DNA of 32,000 nt, taken from NCBI RefSeq assembly GCF_000011065.1, contig NC_004663.1:2877412-2909411 (forward strand), given 5' to 3'. Shown piece by piece: positions 12,323-18,783 of the stretch (positions are counted from its first letter, which is position 1; each line of letters starts with the position of its first letter). Position numbers and translations under genes: made by a program. This DNA comes from Bacteroides thetaiotaomicron VPI-5482. GTDB taxonomy: Bacteria; Bacteroidota; Bacteroidia; Bacteroidales; Bacteroidaceae. Under the pieces are notes generated by a model. That model did not search any database, was not told the origin of the DNA, and saw only the letters and a list, made by a program, of their open reading frames with translations.

Positions 12323-14989
12323 CTATTCTTGGGAAGAACGCAACCCAAACCCGCACGCCCGAGAGTAGTAGAGCAACGGGTACACGGACGACGAGGAGAA
12401 GTCCAGGGTGCAACCGTGGTACTGGCTGTACGGAACCGCCGACCAACAGACGCCGTAGAAGCCAACGCTGTTCGCCCCGCCACCGGAACAGTCGCGAGAC
12501 CCCGACGCAGGGAAGAAGTTGGGTTTACTCTTTGAGGGATCAGTGTAGAAATTCCATCCCTTCGAGGAGTCGTCCCACGTTCCGTTGATTTCAGAAGGAT
12601 TATCTGTATTGCCTCCGGTTGTTGTGAATCCAGTGAAAACATTACTGGGAGGAAGTTTGAAGCCCACAGGAGAGGGATCATAGACCGTTTTTACAACAGA
12701 ATTGTCATTGGCGGTATAAACATTGTTATCGGCACTCCATAGATTTGCATATGTACAATCGCCATAATCTGGACTCTGCATCACATCCGGTTTGAGAATA
12801 TAATTCGTGATACAAGGGGCGCCGATAGAAAAGTCCTCCGTTTTAGGACTTCCCGTGTGAGCATTGCCGTCTTTGTCGTACCAGGTTTTATTGATATCGC
12901 GTAATCCATTCGAAGGCAGGAAAGGATCCTTGCGTCCCCATTGATAGTAAGGATGATTACCACCGACAACGATTGATTTAGAGGCCTGTCTGATAGTTAT
13001 TGTCTGACTCTCTCCTCCGGCTGTGAACTTGACCTTGCAACTACGCTCTGCATAATTCGTGGTACTTCCATCGCACCAGCCGAGATTGACAGACATCAAT
13101 TTATACTTCTTACCCTGGAAATTGGTAATTTCAATGGCATTATTGATATCTTCATCGGTAACCCAGATATGCCAGGACCACAGGACATTGTCGCCGGCAT
13201 CCTTGATGGCAATGATGGCATTACCCTGTCGGATGGTATTCTTGTCCACCGTGAAAGATATATTGCCGTTGCCCGTATTGTTGTATTTTATATCGGTAAC
13301 CAAATTCGGTGCGTCCTGCCATACCAGTTCTGCTTTAGCAGGCGTGCAGTCAGCGTTGTTGCGTATATAGGGGTCAGTGATCGCGTTACCAGCATGGTTG
13401 ATGAAATGACTCAGAATAGTGGTTCCGTACGGATCCGTACCGGACGGAGCCGTAGAGGTATATGCGGACGTATTGGTCGTACCACCTTTGATGGCATTTC
13501 CATATACCAGAGGGAAAGAGTAATATCCCGGAGCACCGACAACGTAGCAGTTGGCGGTGTTTTCATCCACTGTGCCACCATTAGTCTGGTTGGCAAGATT
13601 ATATGGGACAGTTTCAGTACCTTTGACCGAAGCATTCTGTAGAGCAGCCGTATGTTGAGGATTAGCCTCTACGCCAGTCTGTGCGATGACAGTTGCATTG
13701 TATGATTGTGGAGTATCTCCACCATTTCCGGATACGGTAAACGCATCCAGCCAGCCGGGTCTGGTATTGCTCCATGATGCCCCGCCATCTTCTGAATATT
13801 GTGCGGTCCATGTGACAGCCTCTTTAACCCCTTTGGTGTTCTGCCGGTAACTGGTCACATTGTATTGCTGCGTACCGCCTTCATAGGTAAAGTCGGCCGG
13901 GGAGGTAACGGCAAGTGTGTAGGTCCAGTTTATGGAACTGCTGGAAATCTTATAAGTGACGGTCTTGCCAACAGGCCAGACCGTGCCTTTGAGATCGGCA
14001 GTCAGCGTGTGGTCCATGCTGGAGTTATCAGTGAATACGACTTCAAGTTGCGCGCCGTCGGGAAGGGTCTGCGGAACCATCATGAAGGTCTGCGCATCGA
14101 CAGTAAGGGGTTCGTCCGGGATTCCCGTAATGGATCTGTCCAATGTCTGCGGGAAAGTGGCGGGAGTACCTACACCGCTCCATGTCTGCGTTCCCATGTT
14201 GTAGGCCCCACTGGAATATACATTTTTCAAACTGACGCTCTTTACGGTACCTCCCTGCATGTCAGCTCCGCACACGAACCTGATGGCGGTCAGGGCATGC
14301 CTGAAGGTGAGCGGCACGGCAGCGTTGGTGTTCCCGTCCAGTTCATCCGTCTTTGCCACGAGAAGGTCTTCCTGCTCATTGACATCGACCGGAACGGTCA
14401 CACTGATGACAGGAGAACCGGCATATGCGCTGCCGGAAAGCACATAATGCCCGTTGTCTTTCGGAGCGTATGCGAAGAACCTCATTTTGTATGAAGCCCC
14501 GGGCCAATAATAGGCGGAGGAAAGGACATAGTCACTGCCGGACTTGCTGGCAGTGGCATTATAGAAGTAGTCGGGGGTTCTGCTTTCGCTCCACGAACCG
14601 GTGTAGGAGTAAGCGGAGACACCGAAACTGTTGTACATATTGTCATTCTTGATGGGAGTGGCACGGGTAAGAGCTGCCGTGTCCGGACGATCGTCCGAAG
14701 AGGGTGAAGCAATGCTGTCTGTGTAAAGCGTGTGCAGGTAAAGAGGAGTGCTGCCTCCCTGCAGGGCGATGACAGTACCTTGCGGAACATCAGCATCGGT
14801 AGTGGAACGGGTTGACGGAGTCCAGGAGGAGCTGATCTCGGAGGTGAAAGATACATGCGGGGAAAGTGAAGGACGATCCATGTCATCCTCACAAGAGAAA
14901 AGGCAAATACTGCCCGAAACAAGCGCCGAAAACAGATGACGCCAAAAGGCGTACCTGCCGGGAAATGATGTAAAACGGGAAAATTTCAT
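12323..14989 (-). CDS. DGR target: large fimbrillin-operon lipoprotein with a C-terminal variable lectin-fold-like domain (candidate pilus tip adhesin)
   Basis: 888 aa. Signal peptide plus lipobox (SICLFSCEDD). The C-terminal region has YYQWGRKDPF and GVCWSA motifs. Its last ~63 codons are the VR. It is the last gene of the fimbrial-type operon. Confidence 0.88.
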   Translation of the reverse strand: MKFSRFTSFPGRYAFWRHLFSALVSGSICLFSCEDDMDRPSLSPHVSFTSEISSSWTPSTRSTTDADVPQGTVIALQGGSTPLYLHTLYTDSIASPSSDDRPDTAALTRATPIKNDNMYNSFGVSAYSYTGSWSESRTPDYFYNATASKSGSDYVLSSAYYWPGASYKMRFFAYAPKDNGHYVLSGSAYAGSPVISVTVPVDVNEQEDLLVAKTDELDGNTNAAVPLTFRHALTAIRFVCGADMQGGTVKSVSLKNVYSSGAYNMGTQTWSGVGTPATFPQTLDRSITGIPDEPLTVDAQTFMMVPQTLPDGAQLEVVFTDNSSMDHTLTADLKGTVWPVGKTVTYKISSSSINWTYTLAVTSPADFTYEGGTQQYNVTSYRQNTKGVKEAVTWTAQYSEDGGASWSNTRPGWLDAFTVSGNGGDTPQSYNATVIAQTGVEANPQHTAALQNASVKGTETVPYNLANQTNGGTVDENTANCYVVGAPGYYSFPLVYGNAIKGGTTNTSAYTSTAPSGTDPYGTTILSHFINHAGNAITDPYIRNNADCTPAKAELVWQDAPNLVTDIKYNNTGNGNISFTVDKNTIRQGNAIIAIKDAGDNVLWSWHIWVTDEDINNAIEITNFQGKKYKLMSVNLGWCDGSTTNYAERSCKVKFTAGGESQTITIRQASKSIVVGGNHPYYQWGRKDPFLPSNGLRDINKTWYDKDGNAHTGSPKTEDFSIGAPCITNYILKPDVMQSPDYGDCTYANLWSADNNVYTANDNSVVKTVYDPSPVGFKLPPSNVFTGFTTTGGNTDNPSEINGTWDDSSKGWNFYTDPSKSKPNFFPASGSRDCSGGGANSVGFYGVCWSAVPYSQYHGCTLDFSSSSVYPLLYYSRACGFGLRSSQE
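12325..12514 (-). repeat. DGR variable repeat (VR), 3' end of the target gene
   Basis: 190 bp homologous to the TR, with mismatches concentrated at TR-adenine positions. It encodes FPASGSRDCSGGGANSVGFYGVCWSAVPYSQYHGCTLDFSSSSVYPLLYYSRACGFGLRSSQE and ends at the stop codon. Confidence 0.9.
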
Positions 14990-15236
14990 ATCTGTTACTT
15001 TAATGAATTAATCGTACCGGTAATAAAAATCATACAAACGTTAAAAAAGGATTTCCGACATGGATACCCCTTGAAAGAAAATGTCCGGAATACCTCTGGT
15101 AAAAAGTGCCTGGAAAGGAACAGACAGGGCGAAGATAGTAAAATCCGGCCCTGTCCCTCGCGGGGTAATGCAAGTCCAATCCCGTCCAGGCTGATTGTTA
15201 AATTACAATCAAAAATGAAACAAAATACTTTAGATT

Positions 15237-17420: not shown

Positions 17421-18709
17421 TGCTTGCCTCCTTTCTCGTTATGGTTGCCTCTTCCCAAAAGCCACACGAGCGAAACCTCCGCTTTCGTGGGACCGAACCA
17501 GTGACGCTGCAGGGTCTCTTTCCAGACATAGCAACCGTCAACGGGGTCGTATTTATGGTATTCACCACCCCAGTAGCCCACGCCGATGACAAAATCCAGG
17601 TTCAGGCGACGAGCGATGGGCAGCGAGTAGCCGTATTCCAGTCCCACGGCATAGTTCATCTTCTCCCAAAGCGTACCACCCGGCCTGCCGCCCATGTAAC
17701 CCGTCCCCCCGACCTCGAAGTCGTAGGTGAACAGCTGGCCGTAAAGTCCGAGGTGATGCCCGGCAAGCGGTTTCTCTGCGGCACGGCGCCCGAAGTATTT
17801 ACGGAGGGCCAATTCACCCCCGTATATCCGCCAGTAGTTATGGTGCCTGTCGCTCTTCCACCAGGCATACATCCAGTTGCCGCCGAACGACCAGCCTCTG
17901 CCGAGGTAAAACTCCACACCAAGATTCGGAACAAGAAGGGCATCGTAGAGCAGATTGGTTTTCAGACCCATGTAAAAAGGCTTGAGGGCATTGCCAACGG
18001 AAGCGGGCACCTGTACCGTGTCACGAATAACAACGGTTCTTTCGACAGTGTCACGAAGGATGACCGTATCCCGTGCTTCCGCCTCTTTCTGATAAACGGC
18101 GATTTCCCGGTCATTTCCGGAAATTACGGGTCCAAACTCACATTCGACCACGGTACAGTTACGGAGTTCGGGAAAAAAATGTTCGGCCATATAACGCCAC
18201 ACGCTCCCGCCACGCAGATTCATCAGCTGTCGCTTGCGGGAATCAACCACTTTACCGCCCCGAACCACCCACACGGGAGTATCACGAAGAATACGGAGGA
18301 CCTCGTCACGGCAGGGCATGTCAGACTCCCCGACAAGGACGGAGAGGCCCTCCCAGTCTTCTCCCGAGGAGAGGCAGACAAGCACCGAATCGGGGACGGA
18401 AAGACGTTCCCGCATGACGGCACGCAGAGACACGAGCCGTTCATCGGACAGGCGTCTGTTCAACATGGAATTCCCTTCAGGGGAAGCGCCGGAACGCAAG
18501 CGTACACGGCGCAGTACGGCACGTTCCTGCAGGGAGCGGATGCTCGAAAGAAAGGAGTCCAGACGAGGGCCATTGTCCCGGTAGGAAAGATCCGGAATGG
18601 CACTGCCGACGGGGAAATAGAACCGGCAATGCAAGGTGTCACCACCACAGAAAGCCGGACAGACACTTCCCAAGAGCAGGACCAAAACAAAAAACTTCTT
18701 CAATTCCAT
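17417..18709 (-). CDS. DUF3575-like outer-membrane protein with an OmpA-like N-terminal region (first gene of the fimbrial operon)
   Basis: Signal peptide MELKKFFVLVLLLGSVCPAFC (start 18709; ORF-track start 18745). It has an ASPEGNSMLNRRLSDERL OmpA-like segment and a C-terminal LKTNLLYDALLVPNLGVEFYLG beta-barrel-like region. Confidence 0.7.
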   Translation of the reverse strand: MELKKFFVLVLLLGSVCPAFCGGDTLHCRFYFPVGSAIPDLSYRDNGPRLDSFLSSIRSLQERAVLRRVRLRSGASPEGNSMLNRRLSDERLVSLRAVMRERLSVPDSVLVCLSSGEDWEGLSVLVGESDMPCRDEVLRILRDTPVWVVRGGKVVDSRKRQLMNLRGGSVWRYMAEHFFPELRNCTVVECEFGPVISGNDREIAVYQKEAEARDTVILRDTVERTVVIRDTVQVPASVGNALKPFYMGLKTNLLYDALLVPNLGVEFYLGRGWSFGGNWMYAWWKSDRHHNYWRIYGGELALRKYFGRRAAEKPLAGHHLGLYGQLFTYDFEVGGTGYMGGRPGGTLWEKMNYAVGLEYGYSLPIARRLNLDFVIGVGYWGGEYHKYDPVDGCYVWKETLQRHWFGPTKAEVSLVWLLGRGNHNEKGGKQ

Positions 18710-18783
18710 AAAATATAATTTATTCAACATACTTACATATAGCAAAACGAGTTAAAACATTAATCATTAAAAAATATATTTTT

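What the first reader, a model, noticed from the sequence alone, without database searches (positions are those of the whole stretch)
12323..18745. The DGR diversifies the distal gene of a type V pilus-like operon (candidate tip adhesin)
Four co-oriented genes are packed tightly, including an ATGA overlap at 17417-17420. They are a DUF3575/OmpA-like OM protein, a 313-aa lipoprotein, a fimbrillin-like lipoprotein and the 888-aa VR-bearing lipoprotein. The 313-aa and 382-aa proteins end with a shared motif (TVDEWQNVDVDVPM and TVDEWTDQPVDVAM), plausibly the donor strand used for type V pilus polymerisation. The 888-aa protein lacks this motif and ends in the variable lectin-like module. That fits a tip subunit whose C-terminus is free to carry a ligand-binding domain. 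Hypermutation would then retune pilus adhesion specificity.
Basis: partly seen in the sequence, partly recalled or inferred. Interest (0 to 1): 0.75.

Follow-up and report, generated by a model that had tools for sequence, protein, structure and literature searches.

The report
Known DGR-diversified Bacteroides pilus tip adhesin

Summary
Four co-oriented minus-strand genes encode a DUF3575 protein, a DUF5119 lipoprotein, an Mfa_like_1 fimbrillin and an 888-aa lipoprotein whose last 63 codons are the DGR variable region. The TR and VR are 190 nt long and differ at 30 positions, 26 of them at TR adenines (p about 5e-13).

The interpretation also holds. The first ~350 residues of the 888-aa protein are a type V pilin. 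A family profile hits PDB 4QB7 at 2e-23, and a pLDDT 90.5 AlphaFold model hits 4QB7 and other Bacteroidales pilins by Foldseek. The DUF5119 and Mfa-like proteins share a conserved C-terminal motif (TVDEW...VDVxM) that the 888-aa protein lacks. That is the known rule: anchor and stalk pilins carry donor strands and tip pilins do not.

It is not new. The protein is identical to AAO77423.1 of B. thetaiotaomicron VPI-5482. The VR-sequencing primers of Macadangdang et al. (bioRxiv 10.1101/2024.11.15.621889) match the window exactly on both sides of the VR. [quoted passage not shown] Side observations: a structured 247-nt spacer upstream of the tip gene, an Rfam RT-7 RNA abutting the TR, and mostly DGR-free relatives of the operon.

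The parts
17417..18709 (-). DUF3575 protein with a signal peptide and no lipobox. It is the first gene of the operon and a putative outer-membrane beta-barrel. The longest ORF extends to TTG 18745.
   Evidence: Pfam DUF3575 2.7e-38, residues 258-430. Called as 430 aa in identical contigs. The N-terminal half has no Pfam or PDB match. Synteny is kept in 39 of 80 GTDB loci.
16479..17420 (-). DUF5119 lipoprotein (313 aa), the candidate anchor pilin. It ends in the donor-strand-like motif TVDEWQNVDVDVPM.
   Evidence: Pfam DUF5119 3.1e-70. PDB 5CAG 2.9e-15. Lipobox LISC. ATGA overlap with the upstream gene. C-terminal motif conserved in L004, L006 and L007.
15237..16385 (-). Mfa_like_1 fimbrillin lipoprotein (382 aa, or 386 aa from 16397), the candidate stalk pilin. 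A Pro/Thr/Asp-rich linker is followed by IKFTVTVDEWTDQPVDVAM.
   Evidence: Pfam Mfa_like_1 5.3e-20. Lipobox LASC. The C-terminus is invariant or nearly so in 47 relatives: I368, F370, V372, W377, M386.
15095..15200 (-). Structured segment inside the 247-nt spacer between the stalk and tip genes. It has a GGATTGG motif, a hairpin and TTCCTTTCC. Candidate attenuator or leader.
   Evidence: MFE -42.8 kcal/mol, z = -5.1. A spacer of 190-255 nt is kept in L004, L006 and L007, with compensatory changes in 7 of 20 pairs. No Rfam match.
12323..14989 (-). 888-aa variable lipoprotein, identical to AAO77423.1 (BthT). Layout: pilin module about 45-350, beta-rich middle domains about 355-670, C-terminal head about 675-888.
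   Evidence: Exact identity. Fold evidence. Lipobox LFSC with C33. Predicted anchor strand 47-52, followed by conserved R61 in a low-pLDDT loop.
12325..12514 (-). Variable region (VR), codons 826-888 of the tip gene.
   Evidence: TR-adenine codons average 2.50 bits of entropy across 48 relatives, against 0.89 for the rest of the VR and 0.60 elsewhere. The paper's primers flank it at 12304-12322 and 12517-12537.
12241..12290 (-). Two hairpins just downstream of the VR. One is an 18-nt-arm inverted repeat at 12255-12290. The other is a GC hairpin with a T-run at 12241-12255, which looks like a terminator.
   Evidence: Equating these with the post-VR hairpin that promotes retrohoming in the Bordetella phage DGR rests on my own recall and is an inference.
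11727..12209 (-). 160-aa accessory ORF, the Msl (MutS-like) protein of the published DGR.
   Evidence: Weak Pfam MutS_I match, E = 0.039, residues 6-75. Msl is described for the Bth DGR in the paper.
11338..11709 (-). Avd accessory protein (123 aa).
   Evidence: NCBIfam DivGenRetAVD 8.1e-13 and Pfam bAvd 1.1e-6, both below the curated cut-offs.
11100..11283 (-). Rfam RT-7 RNA, lying between avd and the TR and abutting the 5' end of the TR.
   Evidence: 132.4 bits against a gathering score of 116.8, E = 8.5e-32.
10915..11104 (-). Template region (TR) with 45 adenines and 15 in-frame AAC codons.
9556..10740 (-). DGR reverse transcriptase (394 aa). It contains IGDLTSQ and YVDD.
   Evidence: Pfam RVT_1 9e-15. 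The motifs are read from the translation. That IGxxxSQ is a DGR hallmark is my own knowledge.

Best explanation
The window is part of the DGR-carrying integrative conjugative element of Bacteroides thetaiotaomicron VPI-5482.

A four-gene operon encodes a DUF3575 outer-membrane protein, a DUF5119 anchor-type lipoprotein, an Mfa_like_1 stalk pilin and an 888-aa tip pilin (BthT).

Proposed assembly, inferred from the type V pilus model:
- The three pilins are exported as lipoproteins.
- A protease cuts after the N-terminal anchor strand. The likely sites are R61 in the tip protein and R44 in the stalk protein, each within a conserved TR dipeptide.
- The vacated groove is filled by the C-terminal donor strands (IKFTVTVDEW...VDVxM) of the next subunit added at the base.
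- The tip protein has a groove but no donor strand, so it can only sit at the distal end.
- Its C-terminus is free to carry a lectin-like head.

Proposed diversification:
- The adjacent DGR (Msl, Avd, RT-7 RNA plus TR, RT) copies the TR into cDNA with errors at adenines.
- The cDNA replaces the last 190 nt of the tip gene.
- This randomises up to about 24 residues of the head, and therefore what the pilus binds.

What is shown here: gene identities, the TR/VR adenine signature, the pilin fold of the N-terminal module, the distribution of the motif, and concentration of natural variation at TR-adenine codons.

What is taken from the paper: surface exposure and Arg cleavage (shown for the homologue BfrT), the C-type lectin fold of the head, and very low activity of the Bth DGR in the laboratory.

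What is inferred: physical incorporation of BthT at a pilus tip, the cleavage site, the donor-strand role of the motif, and the ligand.
For: Gene families. TR/VR: 26 of 30 mismatches at TR adenines, all at codon positions 1 or 2, p = 5e-13.

Pilin fold of residues about 100-346: 4QB7, 2e-23; pLDDT 90.5; 4QB7 5.5e-14, plus eight other Bacteroidales/Porphyromonas fimbrial structures.

Donor-strand motif: present in the anchor and stalk proteins, absent from the tip protein, and conserved across operons. The rule that base and stalk pilins have donor strands and tip pilins lack them is stated in PMC13655056. The donor sequence IKFTVTV resembles the anchor strands it would replace, ISFRASL in the stalk and VSFTSEI in the tip (direct reading).

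Natural variation: 2.50 bits at TR-adenine codons against 0.60 outside the VR. In relatives about 92% identical (64-71 differences), the 63-residue VR holds about 35-45% of all differences.

Identity with the published locus: exact match to AAO77423.1, and both VR primers match exactly. ICE genes flank the operon, as the paper describes.

Synteny DUF3575-DUF5119-Mfa-tip is kept in 37 of 80 GTDB loci that carry a homologue of the tip protein.
Against: - No experiment, here or in the preprint text I read, shows BthT physically attached to a polymerised stalk. The published surface localisation and R43 cleavage are for BfrT, which is 61% identical.
- The window protein itself misses the Pfam Mfa_like_1 threshold.
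- The lectin fold of the head is supported here only by weak, sub-threshold FISUMP/Fib_succ_major matches in 3 of 8 relatives. The window protein has none.
- VR solvent exposure was not measured.
- The exact 888-aa sequence, VR included, occurs on 657 contigs. The paper reports 100 to 10,000-fold lower mutagenesis for Bth than for the active elements. In this strain diversification is therefore rare or conditional.
- The 247-nt structured spacer before the tip gene means co-transcription with the stalk gene is not assured.
Confidence: 0.87

Rival explanations
1. The 888-aa protein is a free-standing surface lipoprotein adhesin. It reuses a pilin-like N-terminal module as a stalk but is never polymerised onto the co-encoded pilus. 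The DGR then tunes a cell-surface receptor rather than a pilus tip.
For: Pilus incorporation has not been shown for BthT. A 247-nt structured spacer separates it from the stalk gene. [quoted passage not shown]
Against: A conserved anchor strand plus a conserved TR dipeptide (R61) sit in the predicted beta1-beta2 loop, as in cleavable pilins. The position downstream of anchor and stalk genes is kept in 37 of 80 loci. BfrT is cleaved at an Arg and released in mature form, which a permanently lipid-anchored adhesin would not need.
Confidence: 0.08
2. The shared C-terminal TVDEW...VDVxM motif is not a donor strand. It is instead a sorting or recognition signal, for example for the DUF3575 protein or a surface-export machinery. 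The tip protein simply uses another route.
For: The motif follows a long flexible Pro/Thr/Asp linker in the stalk protein, unlike canonical FimA or Mfa1. No complex model or experiment was available here. DUF3575 co-occurs with these genes and has no known function.
Against: It sits at the extreme C-terminus and shows an alternating hydrophobic beta-strand pattern. It resembles the N-terminal anchor strands it would replace. It is present in exactly the two subunit classes that carry donor strands in characterised type V pili. In Mfa1, deleting even the last residue abolishes polymerisation, and here the terminal Met is nearly invariant.
Confidence: 0.07
3. In this strain the DGR is effectively dead. 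The VR is a frozen record of past diversification, and the adhesin behaves as a static protein.
For: The identical protein, VR included, is found on 657 contigs in 836 index blocks. The paper reports very low in vitro and in vivo activity and low avd, TR and rt transcription for Bth. Four of the 30 TR/VR mismatches are not at adenines.
Against: The RT, Avd and Msl ORFs are intact, with YVDD and IGDLTSQ present. The TR keeps 45 adenines and 15 in-frame AAC codons. One 888-aa cluster member differs by only 2 residues, both inside the VR (P0247). The paper reports that near-identical elements are active in mothers and infants. Most of the 657 contigs probably come from the same laboratory strain, so their uniformity says little about natural populations (inference).
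Confidence: 0.05

Closest known systems
BthT and the Bth DGR-ICE of Bacteroides thetaiotaomicron VPI-5482 (Macadangdang et al., bioRxiv 10.1101/2024.11.15.621889)
   Same: It is the same locus. The protein is identical to AAO77423.1. The paper's primers Bt_NGS_UMI_F and Bac_NGS_VR_R match at 12517-12537 and 12304-12322. The layout also matches: anchor and stalk genes upstream, then Msl, Avd, TR and RT, with ICE genes (rteC, araC, topoisomerase, relaxase, coupling protein) around them.
   Different: Nothing differs in sequence. My additions are small: the explicit donor-strand motif, the RT-7 RNA call, the structured spacer, and the observation that most GTDB relatives of the operon have no DGR within 5 kb.
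BfrT of B. fragilis 638R (same paper)
   Same: Three-domain hybrid pilin with a DGR-diversified C-terminal head, the last gene of an ICE-borne pilus operon. It was shown experimentally to be lipidated, surface exposed and cleaved at R43.
   Different: Reported as 61% identical to BthT. Its Cys is at position 28, against 33 here. The experiments were done on BfrT, not on this protein.
Porphyromonas gingivalis Fim and Mfa type V pili (FimA-E, Mfa1-5)
   Same: Lipoprotein pilins, protease-mediated strand exchange, C-terminal donor strands on anchor and stalk subunits, and none on the tip subunits Mfa4 and Mfa5. Foldseek links the model to Mfa2, 5NFI.
   Different: No DGR, no DUF3575 gene (my recollection of those operons) and no lectin-like head. 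Stalk gene order differs. The Pro/Thr-rich linker before the donor strands in the 382-aa protein is not a described feature of FimA or Mfa1.
BvuFim1C (PDB 4QB7) and BovFim1C (PDB 4EPS), solved Bacteroides type V pilins
   Same: 4QB7 aligns with residues about 97-343 at 2e-23 by profile and 5.5e-14 by fold. 4EPS is also retrieved. The paper names these two as the structural references.
   Different: Both are static proteins of about 330-500 residues without a DGR variable region. Sequence identity in the Foldseek alignments is only 12-20%.
Classical DGR variable proteins with C-type lectin folds (Bordetella phage Mtd, Treponema TvpA)
   Same: The VR sits at the extreme C-terminus, AAC-rich TR codons are mutated at adenines, and an Avd accessory protein is present. 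The paper reports that the predicted BthT head superimposes on Mtd and TvpA.
   Different: No sequence similarity was detectable here. The head is fused to a pilin module rather than a phage fibre or a free lipoprotein. An extra accessory protein, Msl, is present.

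Membership tests
Diversity-generating retroelement (DGR) | TR/VR repeat pair whose differences fall at TR adenines | tested here: met
   190-nt pair with 30 mismatches, 26 at TR adenines. p = 5e-13.
Diversity-generating retroelement (DGR) | Adjacent reverse transcriptase of the DGR type | tested here: met
   RVT_1 9e-15. YVDD and IGDLTSQ are read in the translation. No DGR-specific RT model was available in the libraries searched.
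Diversity-generating retroelement (DGR) | Avd accessory protein | tested here: met
   NCBIfam DivGenRetAVD 8.1e-13 and Pfam bAvd 1.1e-6. Both are below the curated cut-offs, but they cover the full length and the gene is in the expected position.
Diversity-generating retroelement (DGR) | VR at the 3' end of a target gene, with variation in natural relatives concentrated at TR-adenine codons | tested here: met
   Codons 826-888 of 888. Entropy 2.50 bits at TR-adenine codons against 0.60 bits outside the VR.
Diversity-generating retroelement (DGR) | Variable residues displayed on a C-type lectin (or Ig-like) binding surface | tested here: inconclusive
   Only weak FISUMP/Fib_succ_major matches, in 3 of 8 relatives. 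The model is confident at 826-888, and by my count 13 of the 24 variable positions lie in loops, with alternation within strands. No coordinates were available, so no solvent accessibility was computed. The paper reports a C-type lectin fold.
Type V pilus tip pilin | Lipoprotein signal peptide with a lipobox cysteine | tested here: met
   LFSC with C33. C33 is nearly invariant in the diverse family alignment.
Type V pilus tip pilin | Type V pilin fold (two beta-sandwich domains) | tested here: met
   Profile against PDB 4QB7 at 2e-23. Foldseek hit to 4QB7 at 5.5e-14 plus eight other fimbrial structures. hhalign against the stalk family at 99.15%.
Type V pilus tip pilin | N-terminal anchor strand followed by a protease-cleavable Arg or Lys | tested here: inconclusive
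   Predicted strand at 47-52, then a low-confidence loop at 59-67 that contains R61, invariant in close relatives, within a TR dipeptide conserved in the family consensus. Cleavage itself was not tested. The paper states that BthT has such an arginine.
Type V pilus tip pilin | No C-terminal donor strand, while the co-encoded anchor and stalk proteins have one | tested here: met
   The motif is present in the 313-aa and 382-aa proteins and absent from the 888-aa protein. It is conserved in the same genes of related operons. The rule is taken from PMC13655056.
Type V pilus tip pilin | Encoded in an operon with anchor and stalk pilin genes | tested here: met
   Synteny is kept in 37 of 80 GTDB loci.
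Type V pilus tip pilin | Physical location at the distal end of a polymerised pilus | not testable with these tools
   This needs microscopy or biochemistry. It is not reported for BthT in the text I read.

The most novel reading that the evidence does not exclude
Two conserved but unstudied parts of this operon type may be functional components that the published work does not address.

(i) The DUF3575 beta-barrel protein is encoded first and translationally coupled by an ATGA overlap to the DUF5119 anchor gene. It keeps this position in about half of the related operons across Bacteroidales. It may be a dedicated outer-membrane partner for anchoring or exporting this class of type V pili.

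(ii) The structured RNA in the 247-nt spacer before the tip gene may set the stalk-to-tip ratio, or gate expression of the tip gene and the DGR genes downstream of it.
Probability: 0.2. Interest if true: 0.5.

Novelty: already known. Interest (0 to 1): 0.15.

Why it matters
It matters as a check on the scan, not as a discovery. A reader with no tools correctly deduced from raw sequence that a DGR diversifies the tip adhesin of a type V pilus, and it named the donor-strand logic behind that deduction.

The biology is important. It describes targeted hypermutation of an adhesin, carried on a conjugative element, in a dominant gut commensal. This was reported for this exact strain and locus in 2024, so no new claim can be made.

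What is left open, both here and in the paper I read, is the ligand, proof that BthT is incorporated into a pilus, the signals that switch on the DGR, and the roles of DUF3575, Msl, the RT-7 RNA and the spacer RNA.

Tried and rejected
- The first AlphaFold run used 48 close relatives (69-93% identical) and failed, with pLDDT 40.8. I discarded it. Re-running with 83 diverse representatives gave pLDDT 90.5.
- Sequence searches of the PDB with the single protein or with the close-family profile found nothing. Only the diverse profile reached 4QB7.
- Pfam and NCBIfam on the window protein itself gave only a sub-threshold BACON match.
- Foldseek against viral structures gave only low-probability multi-Ig matches and said nothing about the head domain.
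- I could not isolate the C-terminal domain for a fold search or compute solvent accessibility.
- The 'OmpA-like' label for the DUF3575 protein found no Pfam or PDB support in its N-terminal half.
- Literature searches for DUF3575 and DUF5119 found nothing on pili. Xu et al. 2016 (PMC4842110) is not held. A search for RT-7 in connection with DGRs found nothing.
- A covariance model of the spacer RNA recovered the four training sequences strongly. Beyond these it gave only three weak hits in the equivalent spacer (L048, L012, L017). The GGATTGG motif is absent from 37 more distant spacers. I therefore do not claim a widespread RNA family.
- The look-up of P0463 found no contig.
Strain identity rests on the exact protein match and the primer matches.

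Full report
OBSERVATION.

The region holds four co-oriented minus-strand ORFs.
- 17417-18745 is the longest ORF. Gene callers in identical public contigs start it at ATG 18709, giving 430 aa. It matches Pfam DUF3575 at 2.7e-38.
- 16479-17420 (313 aa) matches DUF5119 at 3.1e-70.
- 15237-16397 (386 aa, or 382 aa from the second ATG) matches Mfa_like_1 at 5.3e-20.
- 12323-14989 encodes an 888-aa protein with no above-threshold Pfam or NCBIfam match of its own.

The ATGA stop/start overlap at 17417-17420 is real. The other junctions are looser than 'packed tightly' suggests. There are 93 nt before the fimbrillin gene and 247 nt before the 888-aa gene.

Lipoboxes (LISC, LASC, LFSC) are present in the three downstream proteins. 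The DUF3575 protein has a plain signal peptide. The 'OmpA-like' label found no support, because the N-terminal 248 residues of the DUF3575 protein hit nothing in Pfam even at E <= 10 and nothing in the PDB.

THE DGR.

Downstream on the same strand lie these parts:
- A 160-aa ORF with a weak MutS_I match (E = 0.039).
- An Avd homologue.
- An Rfam RT-7 RNA at 11100-11283 (132 bits, above the gathering score).
- The template region at 10915-11104.
- A reverse transcriptase at 9556-10740 (RVT_1 9e-15, with IGDLTSQ and YVDD).

TR and VR (12325-12514) are 190 nt long and differ at 30 positions. Of these, 26 are TR adenines, all at codon positions 1 or 2. Adenines make up 45 of the 190 positions, so this has p about 5e-13. 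The VR is the last 63 codons of the 888-aa gene. Two hairpins follow it.

WHAT THE 888-AA PROTEIN IS.

Its N-terminal third is a type V pilin. The evidence is as follows.
- BLASTP against the neighbouring fimbrillin gives E = 3e-10 over residues 83-309.
- Profile-profile comparison of the two families gives 99.15% probability, E = 3.8e-19, over residues about 102-346.
- 28 of 48 close relatives reach Pfam Mfa_like_1, best 1.2e-22.
- A profile of 118 diverse relatives (33-55% identical) hits the Bacteroides vulgatus fimbrial protein 4QB7 at 2e-23, and 4K4K at 2e-4.

A first AlphaFold run with a shallow alignment failed, with pLDDT 40.8. A second run, using 83 diverse representatives found with an exhaustive HMMER search, gave mean pLDDT 90.5. 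Foldseek against the PDB then returned 4QB7 (5.5e-14), 4K4K, 3SY6, 4DGU, 3R4R, 3UP6, 3PAY, the P. gingivalis anchor Mfa2 (5NFI) and 4EPS. All are Bacteroidales or Porphyromonas fimbrial or adhesin structures.

The model shows three features at the N-terminus:
- A signal helix.
- A short strand at 47-52 (HVSFTSEI).
- A low-confidence loop at 59-67 containing R61. R61 is invariant among close relatives and sits in a TR dipeptide conserved across the wider family.

This is the arrangement of an anchor strand plus cleavage loop.

Residues about 355-670 are beta-rich domains, with a sub-threshold BACON match at 644-669. Residues about 675-888 form the head.

For the head I obtained only weak, sub-threshold FISUMP/Fib_succ_major matches in 3 of 8 relatives. 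I could not compute solvent accessibility because coordinates are not exposed. Indirectly, by my count 13 of the 24 variable positions fall in predicted loops, and those inside strands alternate with conserved hydrophobic residues (for example T861, L862, D863, F864). This fits one exposed face (inference).

DONOR-STRAND LOGIC.

The 313-aa and 382-aa proteins end in ...TVDEWQNVDVDVPM and ...IKFTVTVDEWTDQPVDVAM. The motif is nearly invariant in 47 relatives of the stalk protein. It recurs in the same two genes of operons from a B. fragilis-type element, from an Odoribacter genome, and from a metagenomic contig whose tip protein is only 45% identical. The 888-aa protein has nothing like it.

Established knowledge of type V pili (PMC13655056) is as follows:
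- Base and stalk pilins carry C-terminal donor strands.
- These strands replace the N-terminal anchor strand of the preceding subunit after protease cleavage.
- Tip pilins lack donor strands.
- The extreme C-terminus is essential for polymerisation.

The putative donor sequence (IKFTVTV) resembles the anchor strands it would displace, ISFRASL in the stalk and VSFTSEI in the tip.

EVIDENCE OF DIVERSIFICATION IN NATURE.

Across 48 relatives, TR-adenine codons have 2.50 bits of entropy. The rest of the VR has 0.89 bits and the rest of the protein 0.60 bits. In relatives about 92% identical (64-71 differences), the VR makes up 7% of the length but holds about 35-45% of the differences, mostly at TR-adenine codons.

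IT IS ALREADY PUBLISHED.

The 888-aa sequence is identical to AAO77423.1 of Bacteroides thetaiotaomicron VPI-5482 and occurs on 657 contigs. Macadangdang et al. (bioRxiv 10.1101/2024.11.15.621889) studied the DGR of exactly this strain. They report the following:
- The variable genes bfrT, bthT and bunT lie at the ends of operons encoding anchor and stalk pilins.
- The DGRs carry Avd and Msl.
- BfrT and BthT are three-domain hybrid pilins. The N-terminal domain is homologous to 4QB7, and a C-type lectin head displays the variable residues.
- BfrT is lipidated, surface exposed and cleaved at R43.
- The elements sit in functional ICEs with rteC, araC, integrase and topoisomerase genes.
- The Bth DGR is 100 to 10,000-fold less active than the constitutive ones in vitro and in mice, whereas near-identical elements diversify in humans.

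Their VR-sequencing primers for B. thetaiotaomicron match the window exactly at 12517-12537 and 12304-12322, bracketing the VR. The window flanks carry the expected ICE genes: relaxase, coupling protein, RteC, two AraC regulators, an integrase-like ORF, a topoisomerase and a large methylase-helicase.

The finding is therefore correct and already known. The uniformity of the VR across hundreds of assemblies fits a widely used laboratory strain carrying a quiescent DGR.

WIDER CONTEXT.

The protein family is large. There are 1,865 representatives at 50% clustering with E <= 1e-30.

In a scan of one genome per GTDB species, 80 loci encoding relatives were retrieved from Bacteroides, Phocaeicola, Parabacteroides, Alistipes, Prevotella, Muribaculaceae, Barnesiella and others. 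Of these, 37 keep the DUF3575-DUF5119-Mfa-tip order. Only 3 have a detectable RT within the 5-kb flank. Most relatives of this operon type therefore appear static, and the DGR looks like an addition to a pre-existing pilus operon in one subgroup. This is an inference, and some flanks are cut short by contig ends.

SIDE OBSERVATIONS.

The 247-nt spacer before the tip gene contains a stable structure (window 15095-15200, -42.8 kcal/mol, z = -5.1). A spacer of 190-255 nt is kept in three related operons, with compensatory changes in 7 of 20 predicted pairs. A covariance model found only weak further matches, three of four of them in the equivalent spacer. The GGATTGG motif is absent from 37 more distant spacers. 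The element is therefore specific to a subfamily and may simply be an attenuator that sets the stalk-to-tip ratio.

VERDICT.

- Observation: confirmed, with small corrections.
- Interpretation: supported.
- Novelty: already known, because this is the same locus.
- Interest: low.

Noticed in passing
window 11100-11283 (-): Rfam RT-7 RNA (RF03028), 132.4 bits against a gathering score of 116.8. It lies between the avd stop and the TR, and its 3' end abuts the 5' end of the TR. It is presumably part of the DGR RNA. I found no literature linking RT-7 to DGR function.
   Followed up: partly
window 14990-15236, core 15095-15200 (-): The 247-nt spacer between the stalk and tip genes folds stably (-42.8 kcal/mol, z = -5.1). 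It is conserved with compensatory changes in three related operons (L004, L006, L007) and has no Rfam match. A covariance model finds only weak matches in more distant operons.
   Followed up: partly
window 18780-18810: A palindrome with 14-bp arms (TTTTCCACTCTCTG / CAGAGAGTGGAAAA read on opposite strands) sits in the AT-rich divergent intergenic region between the DUF3575 gene and the AraC-family gene at 18946-19821. It could be an operator or a terminator.
   Followed up: no
window 11727-12209 (-): A 160-aa ORF between the tip gene and avd has a weak MutS domain I match (E = 0.039). It corresponds to the Msl accessory protein named in the paper. Its function is unknown.
   Followed up: partly
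window VR codons 844, 847, 860, 883: Four TR/VR mismatches are not at TR adenines (G>T twice, T>G, C>T). Two of them sit next to a mutated adenine.
   Followed up: no
window 20245-21243 (-): The integrase-like ORF is 332 aa here. An otherwise identical contig, L003, has a 400-aa gene with a Phage_integrase domain, and L002 has it split into 332 + 64 aa. This suggests a frameshifted integrase copy in this sequence.
   Followed up: no
window 12323-14989: The exact 888-aa sequence, VR included, is on record in 657 contigs and 836 index blocks. Its 90% cluster holds 289 distinct members. One member (P0247) differs by just 2 residues, both inside the VR.
   Followed up: partly
loci L008-L087: Among 80 GTDB loci encoding relatives of the tip protein, 37 keep the DUF3575-DUF5119-Mfa-tip order. 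Only 3 (L013, L035, L086) show an RT within 5 kb. Most relatives of this operon type therefore look DGR-free.
   Followed up: partly
L007 8001-11073 (Odoribacter splanchnicus): A 79%-identical tip gene sits in the same operon, but only a 92-aa ORF follows it, and no Avd or RT gene was called within the 8-kb downstream flank. The DGR may have been lost.
   Followed up: no
window 7805-9541 (-): A 151-aa ORF and a PAPS-reductase/DUF3440 protein (424 aa) directly follow the RT. They keep that position in the B. fragilis-type element (L004, L005). Whether they are ICE cargo or linked to the DGR is unknown.
   Followed up: no
window 25891-31617 (+): A 1908-aa ORF combines N6-DNA-methylase/Eco57I and SNF2-helicase domains, next to DUF1896 and topoisomerase genes. 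This is typical cargo or machinery of a Bacteroidales conjugative element.
   Followed up: no
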